In this document: piece by piece, positions 4,128 to 44,399 of the stretch | How the letters are laid out: each line of letters begins with the position of its first letter | Numbering within the stretch: position 1 is the first letter of the stretch | Origin: a virus | Lineage: Duplodnaviria; Caudoviricetes | Length of the DNA: 64,000 nt | Reading direction: 5' to 3' (one strand) | IMG/VR virus record: IMGVR_UViG_2663763407_000006 | Coordinates: 12,440-76,439 of that record | Notes under the pieces: model-generated | Told to the model about the DNA's origin: nothing | Database searches by the model: none | Seen by the model: only the letters and a program-made list of their open reading frames with translations | Position numbers and translations under genes: made by a program

Positions 4128-5357
4128 TTATTTACTCCCTTTGGCGGCCGGTGCTTCTTCTGTGGTTTCCGGGGGAGTTTCAGTAGCGGTTTCCACTGTG
4201 GCATCCTCCGGGTTCGACGCCACTTTCACCGCTGCCATGATCGCCGCAGCCAGGCCGTCATAGTTCGGGGCTTCCGATACCATCAATGCGGCCGCAGCCG
4301 GGGACGAGGTGCTGTCTTTTTTCGCCGGTAAGATTTCGATGTTTTCCACCAGACAGCCACAGGTGTAATCTTCCACGACATAATCCTGTTTAATGGACTC
4401 GTAGTTTTCGATGCGGTCACGCTTGGCGTTCTCATCGATATGGCGGCGGTGCGAGTCTTCCAGCCAGTAAATAGACAGGTTATCGAGGCGGGTTATCATG
4501 AATGCGTTAGCCGGGAAGAAAGGCACACGGATAGCCGGTAAATTGCCGATACGTTTCTGGCTAATAATCAAGTCAGCGGCGAGGGTTTCGCTGTTTTCCT
4601 GCTCTTTGTTGACGATGGGGAAATATTTATCCTGCATCAACTGGCGGCCAGTGATAACCACCAGTTCAGGGTCTTCCTGATGCCATTCAGCAATCATGTT
4701 ATTGGTGGCATCCATCACCAGCGCATCCAGATTGACGTAATCACCGCCATGGCCCACACGGATTTTTTCTGACACAACCGCACCATCTTCACCGATGATG
4801 TTACTCATTACGCGGGTTGGCGCATTGGTGCGGTATTTTTGTAACCAGCCCGGCGCGATATCCTGCAACAGCGGGTTGAGTGCGCGGTTAGAGGTTTTGG
4901 CGCGGTGAGTGCCATTGAAGCCTGCCATGATGCGGTCAAGTGCCTGCCGCTTGATAATGGCGTCGCGCAAACGGGTCTGGAAGTCCTGATAGCGCGCCCA
5001 CAGGTCAAGGGTGTTATAGCGAATATGGAAATCGTAGTTCACCTGCTCACAGAAATACTTCTCACTGTCTAGTGAGGCAAACTCGGCAGTTTCGCGTTCG
5101 TCGCCACCGTCAGTATCGGTGGTGCTGGCAACCGAGCCATTGACACCAAGACCGACCTTTTCGGCGGTCAACTCCGATACCGGCACAATATTGATGCGGC
5201 TCAGAAATTCTGAGGACTCTTGCACGCGGGTCATGATGGTTTGCGTAACAGAGGGTTCGACGCTGAATTTTTTATTCAGGTCGCCTGTTTCTACCCCGTT
5301 CAGCTCGGCTTGACGGGTTAGATAGGCATTAAATTTAAAACGGGTTGCTGGGCGCAT
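4128..5357 (-). CDS. N: Major capsid protein gpN (C-terminally extended)
   Basis: FSVEPSVTQ, ALDRIMAGFNG, NPLLQD, LDNLSIYW motifs. Confidence 0.95.
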   Translation of the reverse strand: MRPATRFKFNAYLTRQAELNGVETGDLNKKFSVEPSVTQTIMTRVQESSEFLSRINIVPVSELTAEKVGLGVNGSVASTTDTDGGDERETAEFASLDSEKYFCEQVNYDFHIRYNTLDLWARYQDFQTRLRDAIIKRQALDRIMAGFNGTHRAKTSNRALNPLLQDIAPGWLQKYRTNAPTRVMSNIIGEDGAVVSEKIRVGHGGDYVNLDALVMDATNNMIAEWHQEDPELVVITGRQLMQDKYFPIVNKEQENSETLAADLIISQKRIGNLPAIRVPFFPANAFMITRLDNLSIYWLEDSHRRHIDENAKRDRIENYESIKQDYVVEDYTCGCLVENIEILPAKKDSTSSPAAAALMVSEAPNYDGLAAAIMAAVKVASNPEDATVETATETPPETTEEAPAAKGSK

Positions 5358-5431
5358 AATAATCCTGATTCAGTTAAATAATATGGGTGAAATAACCAGT
5401 GGGCCGCACAGCTGGCGGCCAGTGACCCCAA

Positions 5432-6286
5432 CTAGCAGTCGGTCAATACATCGTTTTGATTGTTACCGCCGGTGGATTCCGGGCGTTTGGTCTGGCTAAA
5501 GTTTTCAGTGATAGAAAGTTTGGTTTCGAGGGACGTAACCCCTTGTTTTCCCTTTTCGATGCTCTGTTTTAGCTCCACCACTTGGTCAGCAAATTGCTTC
5601 TCAATAGAGGTAAAACGGGCCTCAATGGTTTCTCCCTGTTCCTGCACATGCACTGCCACGGCATTCACTGCCTCATGCACATCATTAAAACGGGCGTCAT
5701 CAGTTGCATGTTTGCGACTGAATACTGACTTCACCATGCTGAGTAAGGTGGCACCCGGTTCGGCCACGTCTTCAAATTCCAGTTGCACTTCAACCGCCGC
5801 AGAGAAAAAGTTATCCGGGTGAGACTTACGGGCGGCCAGTGGGTTGTGTTTGGCTTTGGCGCTGAATTCCAGCATTTCAGTGCCGAGGCTGGCGGGGTCA
5901 TCAGTCACGGCCAGCCCGACCAGATAGGCTTTGCCGGTATTGGCAAAGTTCGGGCGGATCTCCATGGAGGTGTAGATTTTCTGGCGGTCTTTATTCATCA
6001 ACACCAGCTCGTCAGTGGGGCTGATTTGGGCGAACAGTGCGCGCTTGCCGTTCAGCGCTGAATCATCTTCAATGGTTTCCGCTTTCAGACCGATCACATC
6101 GCCATAGCGGCGGAAAGTGCTGTCCGGGGAGTAGCTTTTCAGATGTTCCAGATTGATGCGGCAACCGTAGACGCGCGGATCAAATGAATCTGCCATCTGG
6201 TTGATATCGTTGGCGTCAATCACTCGTCCGTCGCAAGTGTCACCCTCAACGCCGATACGAAAATACTTAGAAACTTTCTTAGCCAT
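5432..6286 (-). CDS. O: Capsid scaffold/protease gpO
   Basis: FRIGVEGDTCDGR, INLEH, GLAVTDDPASLGTE, C-terminal LTDC. Confidence 0.95.
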   Translation of the reverse strand: MAKKVSKYFRIGVEGDTCDGRVIDANDINQMADSFDPRVYGCRINLEHLKSYSPDSTFRRYGDVIGLKAETIEDDSALNGKRALFAQISPTDELVLMNKDRQKIYTSMEIRPNFANTGKAYLVGLAVTDDPASLGTEMLEFSAKAKHNPLAARKSHPDNFFSAAVEVQLEFEDVAEPGATLLSMVKSVFSRKHATDDARFNDVHEAVNAVAVHVQEQGETIEARFTSIEKQFADQVVELKQSIEKGKQGVTSLETKLSITENFSQTKRPESTGGNNQNDVLTDC

Positions 6287-21867: not shown

Positions 21868-22093
21868 TGTTCATGGCCTCGAAATTGGGTTCTTCTTTTT
21901 CTGGCTCTAGCGGCTTACCGCGTAAACTGATTGGATTCAAAAAATGGCCCCAAGTGGTTTTCGGGTGTCCGTCTGGGCGTCGGATAAAAAAGATCCCCGA
22001 GCGGCGTAAAGAGTCACATTGTTTGGTTTTGTAGTGATGACCGGTCAACTCAATCATCTCCTCTTTGGTGATTATGTCGTGGTCGTTTTTCAT
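21857..22093 (-). CDS. Excisionase-like (DUF4224)
   Basis: ITKEEMIELTG..QC..L...GIFF..RPDG.P; overlaps int start. Confidence 0.85.
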   Translation of the reverse strand: MKNDHDIITKEEMIELTGHHYKTKQCDSLRRSGIFFIRRPDGHPKTTWGHFLNPISLRGKPLEPEKEEPNFEAMNSGR

Positions 22094-22256
22094 GGTCTTG
22101 CCCCTGTATCATTTGGGTTATTGCTCTGTCGGTAGCAGAACAGGCCCGCTGTATATCGTGGTCGGTGAGTTGTTGTTTCCGTACACTGGCTGATAATTTG
22201 CCGATCTTAATATCTAAGTCGGTTAATAGGCGTTTGCCCGGTTGCCATGGCTGCAT
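22050..22256 (-). CDS. Hypothetical protein
   Basis: 68-aa ORF in left operon with AGGG SD. Confidence 0.65.
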   Translation of the reverse strand: MQPWQPGKRLLTDLDIKIGKLSASVRKQQLTDHDIQRACSATDRAITQMIQGQDHEKRPRHNHQRGDD

Positions 22257-22305: not shown

Positions 22306-22488
22306 TTATTTCTGATTATGCAAAATCAATTTTTCGGGTGCTTTCTGCGGTGGGGTGCTGCTAATTCGAACATCTACCGGAAAATCGTAGTGAACATCAC
22401 AACGGCGATCAGTGTGGATGGTGCCTGTTCGTCCATCGGGGAGTGTGATATAGGACTTTTCACCGCGTTTGTGAGTACGCTTTAGCAT
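22306..22488 (-). CDS. Small protein with CsrA-like pattern
   Basis: MLKRTHKRGEKSYI vs CsrA MLILTRRVGETLMI; DFPVDVRI vs NAPKEVSV. Confidence 0.55.
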   Translation of the reverse strand: MLKRTHKRGEKSYITLPDGRTGTIHTDRRCDVHYDFPVDVRISSTPPQKAPEKLILHNQK

Positions 22489-22533
22489 GGGTGTTGCCTC
22501 AGTAATGCCCCGTTGGTTTGGGGCGGGATGAAA

Positions 22534-23034: not shown

Positions 23035-25229
23035 AATGTCGGCTCCTGTGCGGTAAGTTCAGCAACCCGTTTTTCAGTTAAGCGGTGTAACGCCAGCAGG
23101 CGGGTTTTGAGGTAATTGGCGTGTTCGTGATCGGCTTTGGCTTCTGCATCTTTGCGGTGTACATCAACTTCACGCGCAATGGTGCTGTAAACCTTGTTCA
23201 CTTCGTTGGTGGTGACGGCGCTCGTAATGGTATTGCCTACTTTGGTTAACTTCTCATCCAGCTCTTTGCGCAGACGAACTGAGTCACCGGCTTTCTCACT
23301 TGCGTTCTTGATAGCAAACTCAGCGGCGTTATCAGTGCGGTATCCGAGATCATCAAAAAGACCGAGGAATACATCAGCAGAGAAACCAAGTTGTGACAGT
23401 GCCTTTTTAGTCGCATCCGTTAGTGATTTTTTGGTGACTTCACTATCACAGGTGAGACCGTTTTTGGTGTTGTAGATATATGGGGTGCAACCATATGCAG
23501 GGATTTCGCCACGCTCACCACGCAGGGTGTAGATTAAGCGTATTTTAATGACATGATTGATCTCAGTTAGATAGCCGCCAGATCCGTTGGGTATGACTTC
23601 TTTTATATAATTTCCATCAGCACCTTTGACTGACCGCATGATCGGTGCACCGTTATCAAAGCGTTCTTCTAAAATCTCCACCCGCCAGTTGATACCTTGT
23701 GGCCCAAGCAATTTTGTTGCTTGCATAACCATATAGGTGCCGTTAATCGACGTGCCACCACCGTTATTTGAGAATGCTTTAGTAAAGCGTTCATCGGTTC
23801 TTTGCACCGAGCGCCACAGATTCATGTTGTCCTGCACATCTTGTGGCTGTGAAGATATATCCTCTTCAATGATGACGGCTCGCTGCTGAAATTCATCAGC
23901 AGTAACATCTACAGTAGGAATAGCGCTTTGCTGCGCCTCTTCAATAACCTCTGTCGGCTTCTCCTCAACTGAGGCATAAACGCTGTAACCCAACTGATCC
24001 AACGTCTCTTTAGCCTGTTGAGCTGCGTTATCAGTGATAGGTTCCAGTTCAGGGTTTTCCTGTTCTGTTTCAACAATTGGCGGTTTTGTTTCAGTTTCTG
24101 GCTCAGAATTGGCAACCAGCGCCAGTTTTGTTTCATTGTTTGCCGCTGGTTGCGGTTCACCACCGGCTAGACCATCAATAGAGAACTTGCCATCACCCAG
24201 ATTGGTTACTGCGGGTTGTGGGTTTTTAACGGCTAAACACTGAGTGATAAATTCCTTTCGTGCTGAGGCATCGGTCAGGAAGATAGGTTGCTTTTTACCC
24301 GCGCGGATCACTTCAAAGATGCTTTCACGTGGAATAGATAACACATTGTTGCGAACGCGAAAATCGGTTGACCATTTACGCCAGGCATCATCATTGTTAT
24401 CCATCAGCTCTTTTGCTTGCTTCATCTCTGCCGACATGACATCCCAGCAGTTAAAATCAGCAGGCAATAAGGCGAGAGCGACTTCGAGATCGAGCGTTTT
24501 ATATGTGTGCTCAAAGCTGCGTTTGATTGGCGCATCAGGAGCCGGCGTGTCAATACGGGCAACTTTTTTAGTACCGGTTAACTCGTCACGATTGCTGGGT
24601 TCATTAACCCATTTTTCAGCAAAGCTACGTACTTCCCTGAATCCAGGTATTTTGGGGAATTTCTTATTTATCGCATCAATAAGATTTTTAATTGACTGCG
24701 GATACATCGCGCCAATTGCAGGAATACATGTGAGCGCCATGTATATCGAACTTATTTCCGGCTCAGCGTCGTCATCATTAATTAAGTCATACACAAGTGA
24801 TAGCTCATGTGAATCAATGTCACGCGCACCGTACAACATTACGCTACCAACTTTAGCTCCAATACCCAGTTTGTTGAAATCAACCGGAGTAGTAGTAGTA
24901 ATGTCCTCACTTACCTCGCCGTTGTCTTCATTACCATCCTCAGGCAACGGTACAGCATTAGGCGTCCATACTTTGCCATCAAAGGTATTATCCTGTGCGA
25001 ACTGCTCATCGAACTCACCAACAACCGGGCGCGGTTGCCCGACAGTATCCTCACAGATTTTCGGATCAGCAAAGTTATCACCGGCAGCGGGGTAGGCTTC
25101 CCATAATTTCCCGATGGCCAGTGCGGATGCCATTTTCTTATTTATGGCTTCCAGAGCTATAACAAGCGGTATAGCCCCATTTTTGAGAGCCGCTTTTTTC
25201 GGCTCGAATAAACAAATAAATACAGTCAT
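23031..25229 (-). CDS. RecE-like N-terminus fused to Rad52/Sak-like annealase
   Basis: HTYKTLDLEVALALLP (RecE-like); TSING.Y..ATKLLGPQG..W and KKSLTDATKKALSQLGFSADVFLG (Rad52-like). Confidence 0.75.
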   Translation of the reverse strand: MTVFICLFEPKKAALKNGAIPLVIALEAINKKMASALAIGKLWEAYPAAGDNFADPKICEDTVGQPRPVVGEFDEQFAQDNTFDGKVWTPNAVPLPEDGNEDNGEVSEDITTTTPVDFNKLGIGAKVGSVMLYGARDIDSHELSLVYDLINDDDAEPEISSIYMALTCIPAIGAMYPQSIKNLIDAINKKFPKIPGFREVRSFAEKWVNEPSNRDELTGTKKVARIDTPAPDAPIKRSFEHTYKTLDLEVALALLPADFNCWDVMSAEMKQAKELMDNNDDAWRKWSTDFRVRNNVLSIPRESIFEVIRAGKKQPIFLTDASARKEFITQCLAVKNPQPAVTNLGDGKFSIDGLAGGEPQPAANNETKLALVANSEPETETKPPIVETEQENPELEPITDNAAQQAKETLDQLGYSVYASVEEKPTEVIEEAQQSAIPTVDVTADEFQQRAVIIEEDISSQPQDVQDNMNLWRSVQRTDERFTKAFSNNGGGTSINGTYMVMQATKLLGPQGINWRVEILEERFDNGAPIMRSVKGADGNYIKEVIPNGSGGYLTEINHVIKIRLIYTLRGERGEIPAYGCTPYIYNTKNGLTCDSEVTKKSLTDATKKALSQLGFSADVFLGLFDDLGYRTDNAAEFAIKNASEKAGDSVRLRKELDEKLTKVGNTITSAVTTNEVNKVYSTIAREVDVHRKDAEAKADHEHANYLKTRLLALHRLTEKRVAELTAQEPTL

Positions 25230-25284
25230 GTTGGTCTTGCCTCTTTGGTTTTTAAACGGATCTTGGTCTTTGATGTATGACTAA

Positions 25285-25620
25285 TTAAAAAGGAATTTCG
25301 GTATCATCAGATACGTTCGATGGAGTGCTGTGCTCGATGCATAGCAACGCCTGAATCTGATCATCAATTAGTGACTGCTTACGATATGACTCAGCCGCAA
25401 TCTGTTCCTTTTTGCTATGGAGTGAATCGACATGCTTGCTGATGATTTCAAAAGGGTCGGGTTCGTCAAAAGGAATCGTAATTTCTCGGGTTTCGAGTAA
25501 AACATGCGCTGGCTCAACCTGTGACATGTCACAGGTGTACACGGTAAAGCGATCATCTTTTGATGTTGAATATGGATTGGTATGGATGTAGAGCTTGGTG
25601 GTTATCTGTAGTGCTGTCAT
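25285..25620 (-). CDS. Hypothetical protein
   Basis: AGGAG SD before ATG 25620; ends with SSB-like acidic tail DDTEIPF. Confidence 0.75.
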   Translation of the reverse strand: MTALQITTKLYIHTNPYSTSKDDRFTVYTCDMSQVEPAHVLLETREITIPFDEPDPFEIISKHVDSLHSKKEQIAAESYRKQSLIDDQIQALLCIEHSTPSNVSDDTEIPF

Positions 25621-25629
25621 AGCAACTCC

Positions 25630-25638
25630 TGATATACT
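25630..25638 (+). promoter_or_regulatory. Extended -10 promoter antisense to left operon
   Basis: TG-A-TATACT; purines 7-8 nt downstream; no good -35. Confidence 0.6.
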
Positions 25639-25644
25639 TATTTT

Positions 25645-25762
25645 AAGATTGATGGCGTAAGCCGTTGGTCTTGCCTCTGTTAACGGGTTGGTCCCCGTTA
25701 GCTTCCCGGTTAACTTTGGTCGGTGACCCGGGGTAAAGAAGCCCACTTCGGTGGGTTTTTTT
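25645..25762 (+). ncRNA. Predicted antisense sRNA targeting early-gene RBSs
   Basis: Promoter, GUAA-capped GU-rich stem, two UUGGUC-loop hairpins, cUUCGg terminator with U7; seed complementary to repeated RBS motif. Confidence 0.7.
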
Positions 25763-25930
25763 ACGTCTGTAATTTGGTGCCCATTACGCCGGGCCAGCGG
25801 GTCAGATCTTCGGTCTTGCCTCACCACACTTTCCCGTCGTGGCTACGTTATTGGTTTGGGCTGCTGCACTGTGGTAATCATGCCGAGCCTTGGCGCGGGG
25901 TTCTCCTCCAATGCAACAACCCAAATTCTG

Positions 25931-26443: not shown

Positions 26444-27601
26444 CTATTTTTTCTTGTTTCTGAAATTATCATCGTCCATACAGTAATTGTATGAATCCAA
26501 GATTAGCCCGGATAATCGTAAAATATTTTCAGGGCGATCTATTATAATTTGATTGCCTGGAGCTAGCTCAAGTCCCGCTCGCTCAACTTCTGCAATAGCT
26601 TTTTCATCTAATTCAATTGGTAAGATTATCGATGGTCGCTGTTTACTATCAAAATAGCGTACAACCCAACGGTTTGATTTTCCTTGGCAAAGAATATTGT
26701 AATAACTGGCTGTGTCTTTTGCTGAAATATCAGCCTGTTCACCAAGTAATAGTTGAATATTACTAAAAAATAACCTTTCGTTATGCGTAGTAACTATATT
26801 TGAATTTTCAGGATCCACGACTGACGCAGTTTCATCTATTTTTTTCAGCTCTGGTGCTAGTGCGACTTCAACATCTTTGTCTTTGTTGGAAGCCATTGAT
26901 AGCCCAGAAACTACCATTGCACTAACAGCTCGTTCTACTGCCATTTTTACTAGTGGTGTAATTGTGTCGAGAAACTTTTGGTTCAACTGTCGTTGTACGC
27001 TAGAGCGACTTGCAACATAGCGGACAAAATCAGCATCAACATTCCTTAAACTATCACTGATAACATCAGTAAATGCTGATAAGTATATGCTTTCTTCAGC
27101 TAAGGTTCGAAGTGCTTCTGGTTGGAACTGGTCGTGACGGAATTGATATAGCTGATGAGCATCAGAGTCCGATGCTTCATCTACATCAATCTGTAGGAAT
27201 GGAGAGGCATCCATAATATTTCTTTGCTTAAGGTCGGTAAAGAAACGCCATTGGGTGCCATTAGTTATAGCTGCAATAGTGACCTCAGGTGTCGCGTTAA
27301 AGTATCTAGAAAGCTGAGGGCAATGGTTATCAAGTTTCTGATTATAGCCCTTGGCCTCAATAAACATGACAGGAACACCATGGCAAAATAGGGCATAGTC
27401 GACTCGTTCACCTACTTTAACACCAGGGAAATCAGCGCCATATTCTGCTTTAACTTTCGTTGGGTCATAAGAGTTAAAGCCAAGAATATCTAACATTGGC
27501 AATATTAATGCTTGTTTAGTCGTTTCTTCGGTAGAACAATGATGGCTTACTTTTTTTACGTGATCAGAGTGCGCTCTTAATTTCTCAGCGAATATCTTCA
27601 T
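26444..27601 (-). CDS. HsdR N-terminal-like PD-(D/E)xK nuclease domain protein
   Basis: EETTKQALILP..LG, VDYAL..MFIEAK, QLSRYF, TNGTQWRFFTD. Confidence 0.85.
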   Translation of the reverse strand: MKIFAEKLRAHSDHVKKVSHHCSTEETTKQALILPMLDILGFNSYDPTKVKAEYGADFPGVKVGERVDYALFCHGVPVMFIEAKGYNQKLDNHCPQLSRYFNATPEVTIAAITNGTQWRFFTDLKQRNIMDASPFLQIDVDEASDSDAHQLYQFRHDQFQPEALRTLAEESIYLSAFTDVISDSLRNVDADFVRYVASRSSVQRQLNQKFLDTITPLVKMAVERAVSAMVVSGLSMASNKDKDVEVALAPELKKIDETASVVDPENSNIVTTHNERLFFSNIQLLLGEQADISAKDTASYYNILCQGKSNRWVVRYFDSKQRPSIILPIELDEKAIAEVERAGLELAPGNQIIIDRPENILRLSGLILDSYNYCMDDDNFRNKKK

Positions 27602-27668: not shown

Positions 27669-28382
27669 TCAATAATCCAGAACTGACCACCAAAACACGC
27701 GGCCAATAATTTCTACGGTTTCTCCGTCAGCATCTTCATCTGGGTGCTCGACTTTATTAAAGCTGCGGATACTTAGCTTATTTCCTGGCATACGATATAA
27801 AAGCTTAAGGCGTTTTAATCCGTCTTGATTGATTGCATATATTTTACCATCGATAATTTTTTTATTTGCACAATCAACAGCTACTGTCGTACCGTTTGGT
27901 AGAATCGGCTCCATGCTATTTCCATGGGCTGGAAAGCAAATAACATTCTCTTTCTGAGCACCAACTCGTCGCAAGGTCGATTTCGAAAAGCGAAGTTTAA
28001 AACCATTGTAGTCTTGATCACAAAAGCTACCATCACCGGCAGCAAGTTCAATATCACGTAAGAATGGTACTTCGACCTCGTCTTCGTGAATTGGGCACTG
28101 ACTATCCCAAGGTATAATATTCCCCCATTCATTCTCAGAAGGAATATTTGATTCCTGATTTATTGTTTTAGTCGATTCCTTCATCGGCAAAATCCCTTCT
28201 CCAAGCCATTCCGGGCGTACCTGGAGTGCGCGGGAAATTTCCAGTAGCTTAGTGGTGCTCTGGCTTTTACCGGACGTTATTTTTTGAATAGCAGCTTGTG
28301 AAACTCCAGCCTTCTCAGCTAGCGCAGCCTGAGTTAGCCCAGATTCCTTCATGGCTACTTTCAATCTTTGTGCAAGTGTCAT
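27669..28382 (-). CDS. cI: CI repressor (HTH + S24 autoprotease)
   Basis: HTH, AAG cleavage site, GNSMEP, LKLL, IIGRV. Confidence 0.95.
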   Translation of the reverse strand: MTLAQRLKVAMKESGLTQAALAEKAGVSQAAIQKITSGKSQSTTKLLEISRALQVRPEWLGEGILPMKESTKTINQESNIPSENEWGNIIPWDSQCPIHEDEVEVPFLRDIELAAGDGSFCDQDYNGFKLRFSKSTLRRVGAQKENVICFPAHGNSMEPILPNGTTVAVDCANKKIIDGKIYAINQDGLKRLKLLYRMPGNKLSIRSFNKVEHPDEDADGETVEIIGRVFWWSVLDY

Positions 28383-28399
28383 TCCCATCCTCGCAAAAT

Positions 28400-28490
28400 A
28401 CAACCTTAGTTATACTCGGTCAAATCACTATTGTTGTTGCTTAAAAACAACCTTGGTTGTATATTTGCAGTTAAATACAACAAAGGTGAT
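28400..28490. promoter_or_regulatory. OR operators (434-like ACAA-N6-TTGT)
   Basis: ACAACCTTAGTTAT 28400, ACAACCTTGGTTGT 28447, ACAACAAAGGTGAT 28477. Confidence 0.8.
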
Positions 28491-28798: not shown

Positions 28799-29263
28799 GT
28801 GGAACAAGAAATCAAAGCCCTTAAAGCCGAAGTTCAGGCGTGGGCGGCAGAGCGGGGGCAGGAGCATGTAGCTATCGAGATCAGCAGAATGTTTTTCTTG
28901 CTCAATATCAACACCGGTTCAGTTCGTCTCACTCCCATTGAAAACGGGCAGGGCGGCGCTGATTGGAAGTCTATTAATAACAACCGGCAGCAGTTATTTC
29001 GCTGGCTGCGCGGGGATTCAAAAGCATCAATGCGCAAGGTCTTGGAATTATCACCGGTACTTAAAGCGGCACTCCCGGCAGAACGGCGGGCCAGGGTGAA
29101 TGGCGAGACCGTGAATTATTTGGTTTCGATTGCTAGCCGAGAGTTTGCCGCAGCAATTAGCGCGGTTCTATTAGATGGCTGTGACATGTCACAAAGAATA
29201 TCGGGCGCTGTTGCGGCACTTCACGCAATCAGACCACAACACCAACGGCTGACCACCGTATAA
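28799..29263 (+). CDS. CII-like/YdaT family protein
   Basis: AWAAERGQEHVAIEI..NRQQLFRWL..ALPAERRAR. Confidence 0.8.
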   Translation: MEQEIKALKAEVQAWAAERGQEHVAIEISRMFFLLNINTGSVRLTPIENGQGGADWKSINNNRQQLFRWLRGDSKASMRKVLELSPVLKAALPAERRARVNGETVNYLVSIASREFAAAISAVLLDGCDMSQRISGAVAALHAIRPQHQRLTTV

Positions 29264-29279
29264 AACAGAGGCAAGACCA

Positions 29280-29504
29280 ATGCTTACATCTATCGACAAA
29301 ATCACCTGGCGCAATGGATTCCGGCTTAACGGCCAACCGGCAAGTATGGCTGACATCGCCCCTATTTTTGCCGGGCGTCAGGTAGCCGCCTATAGCGTGT
29401 GGGAGCAGTACGAGCAGAAGAAAGCTGACCTGCGCGGGATGAACCTATCGCCTGACGATTATCAGTCTGCCTGTCGGCAAATAGCCGCAGCGCTGGGGAT
29501 CTGA
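29280..29504 (+). CDS. Hypothetical protein
   Basis: GAGG SD; between cII-like gene and initiator. Confidence 0.75.
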   Translation: MLTSIDKITWRNGFRLNGQPASMADIAPIFAGRQVAAYSVWEQYEQKKADLRGMNLSPDDYQSACRQIAAALGI

Positions 29505-29506
29505 CT

Positions 29507-30481
29507 ATGAGCATGAATCTAATGGCTAAGGCCATGAGTATCAAAGTCGGGAACCCGTTACGTAAATTGGTACTGATAAAATTAGCCGACAATGCCAACG
29601 ATCAGGGCGAGTGCTGGCCATCGGTTCCCTATATTGCTGAACAGTGTGAAATATCCGAACGCTCGGTACAGAATCATATCCAACAACTGGTAAAAAATGG
29701 GCTGGTTAGGATTGAAGAGCGTAAATCTGAAAATGGCTTAAATCGCTCAAATGTTTATCACCTGCGCTTAAATTCCGCTGGTGCAAATGCTGCACCCTAT
29801 GGTGAATCTCCTGCACCCTCTGGTGCAAACGGTGCACCGGTTAGTGGTGCAAATGCTGCACCCAGAACCAGTCACTCTTTTGAATCAGTCATAGATCCCA
29901 ATACACCCCTTACCCCTCAAGGGGGAACTGAAAATATTCTCGCTGACGCTGAAAGGGCGTTGGCGTATTACAACCAACTCACTCACACCCGATGTGAAGA
30001 CCCAGGGCCATTTGAAATCTTGCTGACAACAACCAAATCGCGCAAAGCCTATGCGCTGGTTGATTTGCAGTTGGTGACCCATTGGGTGGTCAGCACATGG
30101 AAACCACGTAACGGCAAGTATGCCAAGCCTGCGAATATCTGCCGCGTGAATCGGTTCGATGGTTATCTGGCCGATGCCCGCGCATGGTCTGAGTCTGCAG
30201 GGCGGATTGATTGCGATGCAGTCATTGCTGCATACAACCGTGTGTTCAGCGATGTTTTGCCACTGGCTGAAATCGATCAAGACCGTAAGCACGCTATCCG
30301 CGAATTACTCCAATACCTCAAAACCAAAGATCTTGAAGCGTTTCAGGGCTATTTCGAGGCGTTCCGCGAACAGGCTCCGGTGTTTTATTTCGGTGGTGAT
30401 GATGGTTCCCACTGGCGCGCCAATTTTGATTATTTGATGAAACCGGACGTGTTGAGAAAAACCCGCGATGGTGCGCTATGA
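29507..30481 (+). CDS. Replication initiator (wHTH)
   Basis: KLVLIKLADNAND.GECWPS..IAEQCEIS; internal iterons. Confidence 0.9.
   Translation: MSMNLMAKAMSIKVGNPLRKLVLIKLADNANDQGECWPSVPYIAEQCEISERSVQNHIQQLVKNGLVRIEERKSENGLNRSNVYHLRLNSAGANAAPYGESPAPSGANGAPVSGANAAPRTSHSFESVIDPNTPLTPQGGTENILADAERALAYYNQLTHTRCEDPGPFEILLTTTKSRKAYALVDLQLVTHWVVSTWKPRNGKYAKPANICRVNRFDGYLADARAWSESAGRIDCDAVIAAYNRVFSDVLPLAEIDQDRKHAIRELLQYLKTKDLEAFQGYFEAFREQAPVFYFGGDDGSHWRANFDYLMKPDVLRKTRDGAL
29780..29862. repeat. Origin iterons, four GGTGCA-N5-TGCACC-type palindromes
   Basis: Copies at 29780, 29801 (variant), 29822, 29846. Confidence 0.85.
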
Positions 30482-31851
30482 AACCTCAAGAGTTAGAAGC
30501 GGCAATTCTATCCGGCCTGCTGTATGGCGGCTCAACCCCTGATGCGTTGGAGGTTATTGCCACACTGCCGGAAGAGGCATTTAGCATCAGGATTTATCGT
30601 TCTGCCTATGCGGAAATTAAAAAGCAGGCACTGACCAAAGGGATGATCGATGTTCTGTTTGTCAGTGAGGCGCTGGGCGGTAGTAGTCTGGCTACGCTAT
30701 CTGAAATTGTCCGTATGCCGGGCAACGTGGCGAACCTGAAAGGCTATGCCGCCCATGCCCGTAAGATTTGGTATAGCCGCACCATGACCGCATTATTTCA
30801 GACCGCGGCTGACGGCATCCGAGGGGCGAACAATCAGGAACAGCGCGATCAGGTGATACAGGGAGCGGTAACACAGCTAATTGATATGACGGCAGATAGC
30901 GGCGGCATTATCCCGGTGCATCTAAATGACTTATTGCCCGGCTATATGGACATGCTGGATAAGCGCATGAATGGTGAAATTGAGTCAATGAACCTGCAAA
31001 GCGGCATTGTCGAGCTGGATGCCATCACCGGTGGCTTTAACCCGCAGGACTTGGTGGTTATCGCCGGGCGTCCGGGGATGGGTAAGACCGAGTTTGCGTT
31101 GAGAATTGTTGAGGGGGCCACACAGAACGGCGGCGGGGCGCTGATATTCAGTATGGAAATGGCTTCCCTACAGATGGTAGAGCGTTCCGTTGCCGGGGTC
31201 GGTAATTTGCCGGTGTCAAAATTGCGTGACCCTAAAACCTTATGTGACGAGGACTGGGCGCGCATTAACTCTGCACTACAGGCATTGAATGGCCGTGATA
31301 TTTGGATTGTTGATGCCAGCGAACTAACCATCGATCAGATACGGGCTATCGCCGAAACACACAAGCGCCGGTACCCGCAATTAAGAATGGTGATGGTTGA
31401 TTATCTTGGCCTGATTACCAAACCCAAGGCGGAGCGTAATGACCTATCAGTCGGCATCATTTCACGCGGCTTAAAAACACTGGCCGGTCGGATAAACACC
31501 CCGATTTTTGCCCTTAGCCAGTTATCCCGAAAAGTGGATGAACGGCCACCGGGTAGCCGTAGGCCAATCAGTTCCGATCTCAGAGACTCCGGTTCAATCG
31601 AGCAGGATGCTGACAGCATCATTATGTTGTATCGAGAGGCGGTTTATAACGCCGATAGTCCGGCGGCCAGATTTGCCGAGGCCATTGTAACCAAAAACCG
31701 ATTTGGTGAGCCCGGCACCGTTTATCAGGAATTTAAAAACGGCCACTTTCTGCCGGTGGATCAACTAGTGGCAAAGGAAGCCAGCCGAATAGCAAAAGAG
31801 GCATCAAGGCCACCGACCAAAGAAAAACACTATTCAACACCTAAATTTTAA
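30478..31851 (+). CDS. DnaB-like replicative helicase
   Basis: GRPGMGKT, FSMEM, VDYLGL, LSQLSR, DLRDSGSIEQDAD. Confidence 0.96.
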   Translation: MKPQELEAAILSGLLYGGSTPDALEVIATLPEEAFSIRIYRSAYAEIKKQALTKGMIDVLFVSEALGGSSLATLSEIVRMPGNVANLKGYAAHARKIWYSRTMTALFQTAADGIRGANNQEQRDQVIQGAVTQLIDMTADSGGIIPVHLNDLLPGYMDMLDKRMNGEIESMNLQSGIVELDAITGGFNPQDLVVIAGRPGMGKTEFALRIVEGATQNGGGALIFSMEMASLQMVERSVAGVGNLPVSKLRDPKTLCDEDWARINSALQALNGRDIWIVDASELTIDQIRAIAETHKRRYPQLRMVMVDYLGLITKPKAERNDLSVGIISRGLKTLAGRINTPIFALSQLSRKVDERPPGSRRPISSDLRDSGSIEQDADSIIMLYREAVYNADSPAARFAEAIVTKNRFGEPGTVYQEFKNGHFLPVDQLVAKEASRIAKEASRPPTKEKHYSTPKF

Positions 31852-31894
31852 CCGCGCCTGACCAGCGTGTGAACTAACCCAAAGAGGCAAGACC

Positions 31895-32317
31895 ATGCAT
31901 ACAATCAATGAATACATCAATGAAAAACGTCCGGTTATTGACGATGGCTGCGACCACGGCCCGGCAATAATAGATCGTATCAATCAAGCAGCTCGCGCTC
32001 GTCTGCGTGTCCCATATGTTCCCGCACCAAAGCTGGATAAGGTGGCTGAACCTGTCATTGAACATGGCGCCATGGTGAAAATCGGTAACCGTATTAGCTA
32101 TGGTCGCCGCGTTATGACCGGCATTTATGAATTACAGCGCCTTGGCCGTTCCCCGCAACGTATTTCAGTCATGCTAAAAATGCCGCTGGATAGAGTTGAG
32201 CACATTCTTAAAGCAGATACCCCGGTAAGACTGGAACTACTCAACAAAGTAAAGGCCGGGCCACTCCCCAGCGAACCCAACATCATGAAACGCCTGGCGG
32301 CTGAGTCGAGGGCGTAA
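31895..32317 (+). CDS. Hypothetical protein (possible HTH)
   Basis: GAGG SD; GRSPQRISVMLKMP..V.HIL. Confidence 0.7.
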   Translation: MHTINEYINEKRPVIDDGCDHGPAIIDRINQAARARLRVPYVPAPKLDKVAEPVIEHGAMVKIGNRISYGRRVMTGIYELQRLGRSPQRISVMLKMPLDRVEHILKADTPVRLELLNKVKAGPLPSEPNIMKRLAAESRA

Positions 32318-32319
32318 CC

Positions 32320-32571
32320 ATGGCCGGGCAATCGGATTATCTCCCACCCGGACTCCCGTACAACATTTGCCTCTGGCCTCAGGAATACCAAGAAAAGCTA
32401 AATCTTGATTTGAGGGCCAGCGGCTTAATCAAAAATCTGTACGAGCGTAGAACCCACCGCGCCCACGTACTGGAAGCGATTGAACGGGTACCGGTGCATT
32501 ATCGGGAGTTTTTTAAACAGCGCTTAAATTACTGGCGTGACCGTAGAGACCACAGAGGTGAGACCAAATGA
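32320..32571 (+). CDS. Hypothetical protein
   Basis: GAGGG SD; ATGA-coupled to next ORF. Confidence 0.7.
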   Translation: MAGQSDYLPPGLPYNICLWPQEYQEKLNLDLRASGLIKNLYERRTHRAHVLEAIERVPVHYREFFKQRLNYWRDRRDHRGETK

Positions 32572-44316: not shown

Positions 44317-44373
44317 GAAACTACGCTTTAACAATTACCGCCAACGGTAAAAAACTGAGTTATCCAAAATCTG

Positions 44374-44399
44374 AGCCTCGCCATCGTGCGGGGCTTTTT
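44374..44399 (+). terminator. Intrinsic terminator
   Basis: AGCCTCGC-catcgt-GCGGGGCT plus Ts. Confidence 0.7.

What the first reader, a model, noticed from the sequence alone, without database searches (positions are those of the whole stretch)
25630..25762. Candidate phage sRNA that could silence many early lytic genes in trans
Seen: on the strand antisense to the left operon there is an extended -10 (TGATATACT, 25630-38). A 12-bp GU-rich stem with a GUAA tetraloop starts at the predicted +1 (25645-72). It is followed by an exposed GCCUCUGU (25673-80), two hairpins with UUGGUC loops (25681-700, 25705-32) and a cUUCGg terminator with U7 (25741-62). The G-U pairs and both tetraloops work only on the + strand. 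Seed 25664-81 (GUUGGUCUUGCCUCUGUU) is the reverse complement of a motif over the SD/AUG of several early genes. Known: P1 C4, P4 CI, P22 sar and lambda OOP are antisense immunity or regulatory RNAs acting mainly on nearby targets. Inference: a second, RNA-based immunity layer acting on both early operons, with the anti-SD stretch as toehold. I do not recognise it as a described family.
Basis: partly seen in the sequence, partly recalled or inferred. Interest (0 to 1): 0.92.

Follow-up and report, generated by a model that had tools for sequence, protein, structure and literature searches.

The report
Prophage IsrB-like RNA mirroring early start sites
This prophage very probably encodes a structured small RNA of about 118 bases, a distant relative of Salmonella IsrB, whose front half mirrors a private ribosome-binding tag on six early phage genes, so one RNA may hold those genes down, but no expression or functional data exist.

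Summary
Window 25645-25762 (+) folds into four hairpins (z -5.35). It has an extended -10 and a U7 terminator. Bases 25664-25681 are the complement of a box, AGAGGCAAGACCAA, that abuts the ATG of six early genes in both operons.

It is not an unknown family. The 3' 87 nt hit Rfam isrB exactly at threshold (35.0 bits). My own model of the RNA finds true isrB loci. The 5' half is a module that Salmonella-type IsrB lacks.

Relatives include Pectobacterium phage ZF40. They give 48 distinct sequences with 96.9% of cells paired and 28 of 36 pairs changed on both sides. The anti-box and the UUGGUC loops stay fixed while the stems change.

- 42 of 47 box-holding virus records carry exactly one such gene. 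The five without hold a single box.
- Five seed variants each co-occur with their own box variant, with no cross-type boxes.

Trans repression of early-gene translation is the best reading (about 0.5). The main rival is that the gene merely overlaps one more box copy. No RNA-seq evidence was obtainable.

The scan has reported the same system before on DNA of at least six other genomes.

The parts
25630..25638 (+). Extended -10 promoter element TGATATACT. It abuts the SD (25626-25629) of the divergent 111-aa gene.
   Evidence: Read. Region 25607-25636 is 98% identical across 19 relatives, while the 6-nt spacer to +1 varies freely. Other lineages have a -10-like hexamer at the same place: TAAAAT, TATAAT, GTGTAGAAT. 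The consensus scan did not list it because there is no -35.
25645..25762 (+). Predicted small RNA of about 118 nt. The TSS is inferred, not mapped.
   Evidence: Fold z -5.35. Identity is 96.6% against 76.8% for the neighbouring gene and 63.6% for the downstream spacer. My model R1 scores the window copy at 156 bits. Covariation is shown.
25645..25672 (+). Hairpin 1. It is 12 bp, G-U rich, with a GUAA loop. Its 3' arm holds the UUGGUC and start-codon-complement part of the anti-box.
   Evidence: 63 of 191 cells in this helix are G-U, so they pair only on the + strand. All 12 pairs show changes on both sides across 48 sequences. The 5' arms differ between lineages and always re-pair with the fixed 3' arm.
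25664..25681 (+). Anti-box seed GUUGGUCUUGCCUCUGUU. Bases 25673-25678 (GCCUCU, an anti-SD) are single-stranded.
   Evidence: UUGGUCUUGCC is kept in every non-IsrB-type sequence of the alignment; it continues as UC in all of them except the three ZF40-type rows (L133, L126, L097), which read UU.
25679..25702 (+). Hairpin 2 with a UUGGUC loop.
   Evidence: All 9 pairs show changes on both sides. The stems are unrelated between lineages and the loop is fixed.
25704..25733 (+). Hairpin 3, with inner loop CUUUGGUCGG. This is the IsrB-type domain.
   Evidence: Aligned to Rfam isrB. 5 of its 6 outer pairs show changes on both sides. The loop is unchanged in the loci that were found through the box alone.
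25741..25762 (+). Intrinsic terminator, GCCCAC-UUCG-GUGGG plus U7.
   Evidence: The stem differs in the ZF40 type, with the pairing kept. Read on the - strand, the same hairpin was listed as terminator-like.
25285..25620 (-). 111-aa gene of the left operon, downstream of the RNA gene on the opposite strand. It has its own SD (GGAG).
   Evidence: no Pfam family. All 17 relatives found through this protein lie on contigs that carry the RNA.
29267..29282 (+). Box plus ATG of the 74-aa gene that precedes the replication gene. This is the best predicted target. An upstream hairpin ACGG-CUGACCA-CCGU lies at 29245-29259.
   Evidence: Predicted binding is -26.7 kcal/mol, rank 1 of 154. The protein is 66% identical to ZF40 gp13.
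25227..25244 (-). Box plus ATG of the 732-aa gene, a homologue of ZF40 gp07 'putative exonuclease'.
   Evidence: Predicted binding is -17.3 kcal/mol. 39% identity, E 3e-168.
22091..22105 (-). Box variant AGGGGCAAGACC plus ATG of a DUF4224 protein (78 aa).
   Evidence: Predicted binding is -15.0 kcal/mol.
22486..22501 (-). Weaker box variant (GAGGCAACACC) plus ATG of a 60-aa ORF.
   Evidence: Predicted binding is -8.2 kcal/mol. No Pfam family, so it is not CsrA.
31883..31897 (+). Box plus ATG of a 140-aa gene. An upstream hairpin CGC-CUGACCA-GCG precedes it.
   Evidence: Predicted binding is -14.9 kcal/mol.
32554..32570 (+). Box variant AGAGGTGAGACCAA plus ATG.
   Evidence: Predicted binding is -9.8 kcal/mol.
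25810..25823 (-). Second start-less box copy on the pL strand, 50 nt beyond the RNA's terminator.
   Evidence: ZF40 has an equivalent copy at 6078.

Best explanation
Window 25645-25762 (+) is a gene for a small RNA of about 118 nt. It belongs to a family distantly related to Salmonella IsrB. It is transcribed from an extended -10 promoter, antisense to the leftward early operon, just upstream of the recombination module.

The 3' half (hairpin 3 plus the terminator) is the IsrB-type scaffold. The 5' half is a lineage-specific targeting module with three parts:
- a single-stranded anti-SD stretch, GCCUCU;
- a UUGGUC/start-codon complement, half-masked in a G-U-rich hairpin;
- two UUGGUC loops.

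Together these mirror the box AGAGGCAAGACCAA(ATG), and the GACCA-loop hairpins, that precede six early genes in both operons.

Inferred mechanism: in the lysogen the RNA pairs with these start sites and blocks ribosome loading on leaky or incoming early transcripts for excision-like, recombination and replication-region genes. When pL fires, the fully complementary pL transcript, with its start-less box copies, would titrate the RNA and occlude its promoter.

Shown: the structure, its conservation, the complementarity, the co-occurrence of RNA and boxes, and the seed/box covariation. Inferred: transcription, the 5' end, repression, and the titration step.
For: **Structure**
- The + strand fold has z -5.35, against -2.38 for the - strand.
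- In 16 close relatives, 98.8% of cells are paired. 63 of 191 hairpin-1 cells are G-U and so pair only on the + strand.
- In 48 distinct sequences, 96.9% of cells are paired and 28 of 36 pairs change on both sides. That is 276 such cells against 73.6 in shuffles (0 of 500 shuffles reach it) and 14-38 when the partner is slid. This alignment was fitted to the model.

**Selection**
- The RNA is 96.6% identical across 19 relatives. The adjacent gene is 76.8% identical and the downstream spacer 63.6%.

**Homology to a verified RNA**
- Rfam isrB scores 35.0 bits, equal to its gathering score of 35.
- Model R1 finds loci that Rfam scores at 68-108 bits as isrB.
- IsrB is a mapped transcript of 88/94 nt, antisense to its flanking genes, next to sbcA. 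It is expressed in lysogens.

**Targets**
- Six start sites carry the box.
- Predicted binding is -8 to -27 kcal/mol, against -5 for two controls.
- Box-bearing sites rank 1, 3, 4 and 5 of 154 in the window.
- In annotated phage ZF40, the five best of 67 annotated starts all carry the box, as do 6 of the top 7.

**Linkage of RNA and boxes**
- 26 of 26 window-type loci hold further boxes, against 1 of 44 Salmonella-type loci.
- 42 of 47 box-holding records have exactly one RNA gene, and 34 of 36 among records >=90% complete.
- The 5 records without the gene have a single box each. Five sampled records with the gene have 5-7 boxes, all in the early region and split by strand.

**Covariation of seed and box**
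- Seed core TTG: 246 of 274 start boxes are CAA, plus 23 CGA (wobble-compatible).
- Seed core TTT: 96 of 96 are AAA.
- Seed core ATA: 27 of 44 are TAT.
- Seed core ATG: 4 of 4 are CAT.
- Seed core AGT: 2 of 2 are ACT.
- No cross-type boxes occur.
- One whole genome has 7 variant boxes on its prophage contigs and 0 canonical boxes.

**The - strand copy is not a conserved start**
- 17 of 43 contexts have no ATG. The rest give MINH*, 10-codon peptides or in-frame extensions.
- The downstream gene has its own SD.
Against: - There is no evidence of transcription. No RNA holder was listed, and the two raw RNA runs laid 0 reads (no test either way).
- The promoter has no -35 and the consensus scan did not list it. 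That scan listed the terminator hairpin only on the - strand.
- The anti-box is also the antisense of one more box copy on the pL strand, complete with an upstream GACCAA-loop hairpin. Its conservation, its co-occurrence with the boxes and its covariation with them could all follow from whatever constrains every box.
- Salmonella-type IsrB has no box and no recurrent complementary sites within its loci. The family scaffold therefore works without this mechanism.
- In the ATA lineage, 15 of 44 start boxes are AAT, which gives a mismatch with the seed.
- Part of the seed is sequestered in hairpin 1.
- One non-box site scores -18.4 kcal/mol.
Confidence: 0.5

Rival explanations
1. The RNA is a cis-only antisense RNA and the match to the boxes is a by-product. 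It is real and IsrB-like, but it acts only on the overlapping pL transcript, for instance by duplex cleavage or by transcriptional interference upstream of the recombination genes. The boxes would then be start-associated sequences read by the ribosome, by a protein, or used as recombination linkers. The RNA gene simply overlaps one copy.
For: - The - strand of the gene is a full box cassette: a GACCAA-loop hairpin followed by AACAGAGGCAAGACCAA.
- In most type B relatives this copy even carries an ATG (26 of 43 contexts).
- The box heads at least 108 different gene starts, grouped by first four codons, many with swapped downstream genes.
- Salmonella-type IsrB lacks any box.
- Padalon-Brauch et al. 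report that many island sRNAs act in cis and that isrB overlaps its flanking genes.
Against: - The - strand copy has no conserved start or ORF, and the next gene uses its own SD. Yet UUGGUCUUGCC is kept in all non-IsrB-type sequences of the alignment, with only the last base of the box complement changed in the ZF40 type.
- Hairpin 1 is a + strand-only helix built on the anti-box. It is re-made with different 5' arms in every lineage.
- Boxes within a phage share the 3-nt core that matches that phage's RNA, and the core differs between lineages. This needs a phage-specific trans factor, and the RNA is the only candidate seen.
Confidence: 0.3
2. The RNA is a protein sponge or protein-binding RNA. 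The three UUGGUC motifs, displayed in loops, would bind an RNA-binding protein in the manner of CsrB/RsmX. Alternatively the GACCA loops and boxes on the mRNAs would be the protein's sites.
For: - UUGGUC occurs three times. The two loop copies stay fixed while their stems change.
- GACCR occurs 6-45 nt upstream of the box in 50 of 108 gene-start groups, against my rough expectation of about 8. It often sits in small hairpin loops on unrelated stems.
- There is a weak structural hit to rsmX.
- IsrB is reported to be ProQ-associated.
Against: - The rsmX hit is 23.6 bits against a gathering score of 56.
- The motif is not GGA.
- The 60-aa ORF that another first-stage note proposed as CsrA-like has no Pfam match.
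- No candidate protein was identified.
- This reading does not explain the contiguous 14-18 nt complementarity that includes the SD.
Confidence: 0.08
3. There is no + strand RNA. The hairpins would be features of the pL mRNA: a leader structure, a processing site or a tL-type terminator.
For: - The - strand reading of the last hairpin is terminator-like.
- The - strand fold is mildly better than shuffles, z -2.38.
- In Salmonella-type loci, a hairpin near the mapped 5' end of the RNA pairs better on the - strand. This is my own reading of the sequences.
Against: - 63 of 191 hairpin-1 cells are G-U and would be A-C on the - strand.
- The U7 tract follows the hairpin only on the + strand.
- IsrB, the homologue, is a mapped transcript on the corresponding strand.
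- A 2-nt indel in the linker between hairpins 2 and 3 among close relatives rules out a conserved leader ORF.
Confidence: 0.07

Closest known systems
IsrB-1 / IsrB-2 of Salmonella Typhimurium prophages Gifsy-2 / Gifsy-1 (Rfam RF01386). Sources: Padalon-Brauch et al. 2008, PMC2330248; Smirnov et al. 2017, PMC5391140; Owen et al. 2020, PMC7067206. I saw passages of each.
   Same: - Both are prophage small RNAs antisense to the leftward early operon, directly upstream of the exonuclease/recombination gene, in the orientation <- -> <-.
- Both share hairpin 3, with the CUUUGGUCGGUGA loop, and the terminator.
- In both, the -10 element abuts the SD of the divergent gene.
- The models recognise each other's loci.
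   Different: - The Rfam score sits only at threshold (35.0 against 35). Type B and ZF40 relatives are not found at E<=0.01.
- The predicted RNA is about 118 nt, against the mapped 88/94 nt.
- The 5' module (hairpin 1, anti-box, UUGGUC hairpin 2) is absent from IsrB proper. Salmonella-type prophage loci hold no boxes (1 of 44).
- No function for IsrB is given in the passages I saw. 'Lysogeny maintenance' is offered there only as a likelihood.
Antisense immunity and regulatory RNAs of temperate phages: P1/P7 C4, P4 CI, P22 sar, lambda OOP. Recalled, not checked in any call.
   Same: - Each is a phage RNA complementary to sites on the phage's own early transcripts.
- C4 and CI recognise repeated target sequences at a distance, at or near a ribosome-binding region.
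   Different: - Here the RNA has its own promoter and terminator. As I recall, C4 and CI are instead processed from a longer transcript.
- There are six or more targets spread over both divergent early operons.
- The target is a shared start-site tag, not one or two dedicated sites.
Start-associated sequences (SAS) and extended SAS of Cluster K mycobacteriophages (Pope et al. 2011, PMC3203893; passages seen).
   Same: - Both are a short asymmetric motif containing the SD, a few bases before the ATG of many non-structural genes of different families.
- Both are absent from structural genes.
- In both, about half the sites have an upstream inverted repeat or hairpin.
- The authors leave open whether a phage RNA or protein binds them.
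   Different: - The sequence and the hosts are unrelated (GGGATAGGAGCCC, mycobacteria).
- No complementary RNA gene is described there.
- This is a functional analogy, not membership.
Loop-displayed seeds of other regulatory RNAs: C-rich UCCC loops of staphylococcal sRNAs that target SD sequences, and YUNR U-turn loops of CopA/Sok-type antisense RNAs. Recalled, not checked in any call.
   Same: - A short motif is repeated and displayed in hairpin loops, and it complements start regions.
- UUGG fits the YUNR pattern.
   Different: - The sequences and the organisms differ.
- Kissing with GACCA loops is only inferred here.

Membership tests
IsrB (Rfam RF01386) | Covariance-model score at or above the gathering score of 35 bits | tested here: inconclusive
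   The targeted search scored 35.0 bits, E 2.8e-4, at 25675-25761 +. The whole-window gathering run did not list it. Type B relatives and ZF40 are not found at E<=0.01, while types C and D score 68-108 bits.
IsrB (Rfam RF01386) | Position and orientation: inside a lambdoid prophage, antisense to both flanking genes, next to the exonuclease (sbcA-like) gene | tested here: met
   ORF map. The paper's table gives sbcA/STM1010 as <- -> <-. ZF40 annotation. The 732-aa protein is 39% identical to ZF40 gp07 'putative exonuclease'.
IsrB (Rfam RF01386) | Shared 3' domain: hairpin with CUUUGGUCGGUGA loop, then an intrinsic terminator | tested here: met
   Alignments. Model R1 hits true isrB loci at 33-43 bits. 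The first two collection scans required part of this loop, so its invariance is unbiased only in the loci found through the box.
IsrB (Rfam RF01386) | Transcript of 88/94 nt | tested here: not met
   The predicted RNA is 118 nt, with an extra 5' hairpin and the anti-box. The 5' end is inferred, not mapped.
IsrB (Rfam RF01386) | Expressed in the lysogen and associated with ProQ | not testable with these tools
   No RNA holder was listed, and 0 reads were laid from two raw RNA runs.
Antisense immunity RNAs (P1 C4 / P4 CI type) | RNA complementary to repeated sites on the phage's own early transcripts | tested here: met
Antisense immunity RNAs (P1 C4 / P4 CI type) | Matured by processing from a longer immunity transcript (feature recalled) | tested here: not met
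   The RNA has its own -10 element 7 nt before hairpin 1 and its own terminator.
Antisense immunity RNAs (P1 C4 / P4 CI type) | Confers immunity or represses lytic genes | not testable with these tools
   This needs genetics.
SAS/ESAS-type start-associated motifs | Asymmetric motif with an SD core, a few bases before the ATG of many non-structural genes, absent from structural genes | tested here: met
   Window. ZF40 annotated starts gp03, gp05, gp07, gp13, gp16, gp18. 5-7 copies per record, all in the early region. 108 gene-start groups. Definition. This is an analogy only: the sequence and the hosts are unrelated.
CsrB/RsmX-type protein sponges | Model score at or above gathering, and GGA loop motifs | tested here: not met
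   rsmX scores 23.6 bits against 56. The loops are UUGGUC, not GGA.

The most novel reading that the evidence does not exclude
These phages use a private translational address system. Every early gene start carries a tag (SD, a 3-nt core, then GACCA-ATG, often with a GACCA-loop hairpin upstream). One prophage RNA reads that tag. At least five seed/tag specificity types exist. The RNA would act as a second, RNA-based immunity layer. It could also silence superinfecting relatives that share the tag but have a different repressor. The start-less tag copies on the pL transcript would act as a built-in sponge that releases the whole regulon at induction. This would supply the missing trans factor for SAS-like motifs in phages.
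Probability: 0.3. Interest if true: 0.88.

Novelty: new variant of a known kind. Interest (0 to 1): 0.72.

Why it matters
IsrB has been known as a transcript since 2008, and the papers I could search give it no mechanism. Start-associated sequences of phages have been an open puzzle since 2011.

This locus and its relatives link the two. A structured prophage RNA has fixed parts that are exactly the complement of a private start-site tag, and the tag and the RNA change together between lineages.

If the pairing is functional, it would mean three things:
- a one-RNA brake on excision-like, recombination and replication genes;
- a new kind of immunity specificity in temperate phages of Enterobacterales;
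- a set of natural orthogonal repressor-RNA/RBS pairs.

It can be tested directly in a cultured phage, Pectobacterium phage ZF40.

Tried and rejected
**RNA evidence.** The look-up of sequencing runs listed no RNA holder. Read laying on two raw RNA runs of the same species label laid 0 reads, so there is no test. The two contig runs looked like genomic DNA. None of this counts for or against expression.

**Database blanks.**
- E. coli genomes: no blastn match.
- Phage collection: only ZF40 matched.

**Hairpin-3 loop target.** A 12-nt perfect complement of the hairpin-3 loop lies inside the helicase gene (31810-31821). I rejected it as probably chance. By my estimate about 0.8 such 12-mer matches are expected for an RNA of this length, the site is coding, and relatives vary there non-synonymously.

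**G-U-compatible box variation.** Rejected as not significant, because 10 of the 14 box positions tolerate a transition.

**Long leader ORF through the RNA's antisense (25621-25827).** Rejected, because a 2-nt indel among close relatives breaks the frame.

**CsrA-like 60-aa protein.** No Pfam hit at E<=0.1.

**Own-box search in Salmonella-type loci.** No recurrent complementary 10-mers.

**Literature.** I found nothing on IsrB targets, on a ZF40 small RNA or on this box in searches. Search 49, using the box string, returned only unrelated primer sequences. The supplements of PMC2330248 (its Table S1) may hold the exact IsrB sequence.

**Taxonomic sampling.** The order-level sample found the RNA in 3 of 151 genomes, the centre genome included, and used strict filters. 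This is a sample, not evidence of absence.

**Chance hits in pattern scans.** Single-copy hits were treated as chance. The classes were assigned by regular expression, not by the model. The TTG class therefore also includes matches at gene starts.
Full report
**1. The observation**

- TGATATACT at 25630-25638.
- A 12-bp hairpin with a GUAA loop at 25645-25672.
- A short unpaired GCCUCU.
- Two hairpins with UUGGUC loops.
- A UUCG-capped terminator with U7 that ends at 25762.

As RNA, the + strand folds at -53.8 kcal/mol (z -5.35; 0 of 200 shuffles as good). The - strand folds at -35.3 kcal/mol (z -2.38; 5 of 200).

The 18-mer 25664-25681 has three matches in the window at <=3 mismatches, against 0.05 expected. 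Its 11-mer core has eight matches at <=1 mismatch, against 0.73 expected.

A 14-mer scan gave 11 matches at <=3 mismatches:
- Six abut the ATG of an ORF, always in transcript sense. Three are in the leftward operon (22105, 22501, 25244) and three in the rightward operon (29267, 31883, 32554).
- Two are start-less copies on the leftward strand: 25678, which is the antisense of the RNA itself, and 25823.
- Three, each with 3 mismatches, look like chance.

The simple consensus scan listed neither the promoter nor the + strand terminator, and listed the last hairpin only on the - strand. I read this as a limit of that scan: it demands a -35, and the stem can absorb the T-run. It is recorded as not supporting.

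**2. Context**

The window is part of an IMG/VR provirus record. The region is a lambdoid early region:
- a cI-like gene at 27669-28403 (-);
- cro- and cII-like genes to its right;
- a replication gene at 29507 and a helicase at 30478;
- to the left, an HSDR_N nuclease, small ORFs, the RNA locus, a 111-aa gene (ATG 25620, own SD), a 732-aa gene, a Gp157-family gene and a DUF4224 gene.

Pectobacterium phage ZF40 has the same layout. Its gp07 'putative exonuclease' is 39% identical to the 732-aa protein (E 3e-168). Its gp13 is 66% identical to the 74-aa protein.

**3. Known family**

A targeted Rfam search puts isrB (RF01386) on 25675-25761 (+) at 35.0 bits, which is exactly the gathering score (E 2.8e-4). 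The whole-window gathering run listed only isrJ, at 44331-44397.

What the papers say about IsrB, from the passages I saw:
- IsrB-1 and IsrB-2 are identical RNAs of 88/94 nt in Gifsy-2 and Gifsy-1. They lie between sbcA and the next gene and are antisense to both. They are induced by starvation and overlap their neighbours. No function was determined (PMC2330248).
- IsrB is described as ProQ-associated, with a 'likely' role in lysogeny (PMC5391140).
- IsrB-1 is seen in lysogen transcriptomes (PMC7067206).
- The E. coli K-12 RNA named IsrB in the paper is, from recall, a different molecule.

**4. Relatives and types**

Two pattern scans of viral contigs gave 22 and 69 loci. One scan of genome contigs gave Yersinia artesiana, Enterobacter sp., Rouxiella silvae and Citrobacter sedlakii, plus three hits in metagenome-assembled genomes that look like chance. 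Together these are 74 loci with 45 distinct 190-nt stretches.

They fall into types:
- Window-like (type A).
- A type with different hairpin 1 and 2 stems (type B).
- Salmonella-like IsrB (type C; Rfam 81-108 bits).
- Minor types.

Types A and B and ZF40 share the anti-box UUGGUCUUGCCU(C/U). Type C lacks it.

I searched them with a covariance model built from 16 type A/B sequences. 34 of 100 such loci held a full-length match at >=57 bits.

**5. Structure and selection**

- In the 16 close sequences, 98.8% of cells pair. Six hairpin-1 pairs vary on one side only, always keeping a standard pair. 63 of 191 hairpin-1 cells are G-U, which would be A-C mismatches on the other strand.
- Across 63 matches (48 distinct sequences), 96.9% of cells pair and 28 of 36 pairs change on both sides. 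That is 276 such cells, against 73.6 in shuffles (0 of 500 reach it) and 14-38 when the 3' partner is slid. This alignment was fitted to the model, so it leans towards the structure.
- Reading the alignment, the stems of hairpins 1, 2 and 3 are rebuilt with unrelated sequences. The anti-box, the UUGGUC loop of hairpin 2 and the CUUUGGUCGG loop of hairpin 3 stay fixed.
- Against 19 relatives, the RNA is 96.6% identical, the neighbouring 111-aa gene 76.8% and the downstream spacer 63.6%.
- All 17 loci found through the 111-aa protein lie on contigs that carry the RNA.

**6. Targets**

With cofold, the six box-bearing start regions give -8.2 to -26.7 kcal/mol of net binding, against about -5 for two controls.
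- Among 154 start-like windows, box-bearing ones rank 1, 3, 4 and 5.
- Non-box windows average -4.3 (sd 2.6), with one outlier of -18.4 at 4498.

In ZF40, using the depositors' 67 gene starts, the five best are gp16, gp13, gp07, gp03 and gp05, all with the box. gp18 ranks seventh.

The best window target is the 74-aa gene ahead of the replication gene. There the identity to the RNA's antisense runs past the box (a shared GCTTAC), and an upstream hairpin with a CUGACCA loop faces hairpin 2.

Small hairpins with GACCA loops on unrelated stems recur upstream of boxes. GACCR occurs at -45 to -6 in 50 of 108 gene-start groups, against my rough expectation of about 8.

**7. Linkage of RNA and boxes**

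- 26 of 26 type A/B loci hold further boxes oriented with the operons. 1 of 44 type C loci holds any.
- Of 47 box-holding virus records >=30 kb, 42 have exactly one RNA match, and 34 of 36 among those >=90% complete.
- The five records without a match hold one box each. Five sampled records with a match hold 5-7 exact boxes, all within the early region and split by strand.

**8. Seed/box covariation**

A sample of 151 Enterobacterales genomes gave 3 with a match, the centre genome included. One of them carries the seed GGUCAUACCUC.
- That genome has 8 copies of the matching box GAGGTATGACC, 7 of them on prophage contigs and at least three on an ATG.
- The reversed-pattern control gave 4 copies.
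- That genome has no canonical box.

Only five cores came with boxes of their own. Counting start boxes by core:

| Seed core | Own box core | Own-core start boxes | Other start boxes |
|---|---|---|---|
| TTG | CAA | 246 of 274 | 23 CGA (wobble-compatible), 5 others |
| TTT | AAA | 96 of 96 | none |
| ATA | TAT | 27 of 44 | 15 AAT, 2 others |
| ATG | CAT | 4 of 4 | none |
| AGT | ACT | 2 of 2 | none |

No lineage held another lineage's box. Classes were assigned by regular expression, so the TTG class also includes matches at gene starts.

**9. The confound**

The antisense of the RNA's 5' half is itself a box cassette on the pL strand, consisting of a GACCAA-loop hairpin plus the box. Conservation, co-occurrence and covariation would all follow if this were simply one more box kept by whatever keeps all boxes.

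Three points argue against that:
- This copy has no conserved start. 17 of 43 contexts lack an ATG. The others give MINH*, MTNH*, 10-codon peptides, an out-of-frame ORF or an in-frame extension. The next gene has its own SD.
- Hairpin 1 is a + strand-only helix built on the anti-box, and it is re-made in every lineage.
- A within-phage uniform but between-lineage variable 3-nt core calls for a phage-specific trans factor. The RNA is the only one in view.

Points that keep the rival alive:
- There are no expression data.
- Type C IsrB works without any box.
- The ATA lineage has imperfect boxes.

**10. Comparison**

- The locus works like the antisense immunity RNAs of P1 and P4 (recalled). It differs in having its own promoter and terminator and in addressing a tag shared by many genes in both operons.
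- The boxes resemble the start-associated sequences of Cluster K mycobacteriophages, whose binding factor is unknown (PMC3203893).
- By descent it is a divergent branch of IsrB.

**11. Verdict**

| Claim | Confidence |
|---|---|
| A real, conserved, structured RNA gene | about 0.85 |
| Kinship with IsrB | about 0.75 |
| Trans repression of box-bearing early genes | about 0.5 |

The scan has reported the same system before in at least six other genomes. I re-tested the covariation claim and the comparison with phage ZF40 myself, and I followed the SAS lead as far as reading passages of the paper.

**Literature searches**

Searches turned up no description of this mechanism.

Noticed in passing
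window 44331-44397 (+): Rfam isrJ (RF01393) scores 54.7 bits against a gathering score of 37. This is a second Gifsy-type island sRNA in the same prophage.
   Followed up: no
window 25810-25823 (-), and type B loci such as L107 and L118 just after the terminator: A second start-less box lies about 50 nt beyond the RNA's terminator. In type B relatives this place holds a partial second element: an anti-box-like GGTCTGCCTT followed by CTTTGGTCGGTAA. ZF40 has an equivalent copy at 6078. It could be a remnant of a duplicated RNA gene or a decoy site.
   Followed up: partly
window 31810-31821 (+): A 12-nt perfect complement of the hairpin-3 loop lies inside the 3' end of the helicase gene. Relatives have CACCGGCCAAAG, which would still pair by wobble. 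It is probably chance, since about 0.8 such matches are expected by my estimate.
   Followed up: partly
window 26444-27601 (-): A 385-aa protein has type I restriction HSDR_N domains (PF04313, E 4e-13) and no partner genes. It lies between cI and the RNA locus, roughly in the rex position.
   Followed up: no
window about 4463-4518 (+): This non-box start-like window has an unusually strong predicted pairing to the RNA, -18.4 kcal/mol, against a background of -4.3 with sd 2.6. I did not examine it.
   Followed up: no
Type B loci, e.g. L121:5905-6032 and L107:4529-4655 (- strand): In most type B relatives, the box copy antisense to the RNA starts a 4-codon mini-ORF (MINH*, MIAH* or MTNH*) that ends about 25 nt before the next gene's SD. 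This is a possible leader peptide or coupling device.
   Followed up: partly
L214 (G097:C51), - strand around 2066: Two box variants lie in tandem: GAGGTATGACCAAT with no ATG, then 12 nt later GAGGAATGACCAATG on a start codon.
   Followed up: no
L097 (ZF40) 4919-5407: The annotated 'gp08' of ZF40 (162 aa) runs through the whole RNA gene. The conserved start of its homologues (CAT plus SD, next to the -10) lies near record position 5211-5213. The deposited ORF is therefore probably over-extended.
   Followed up: partly
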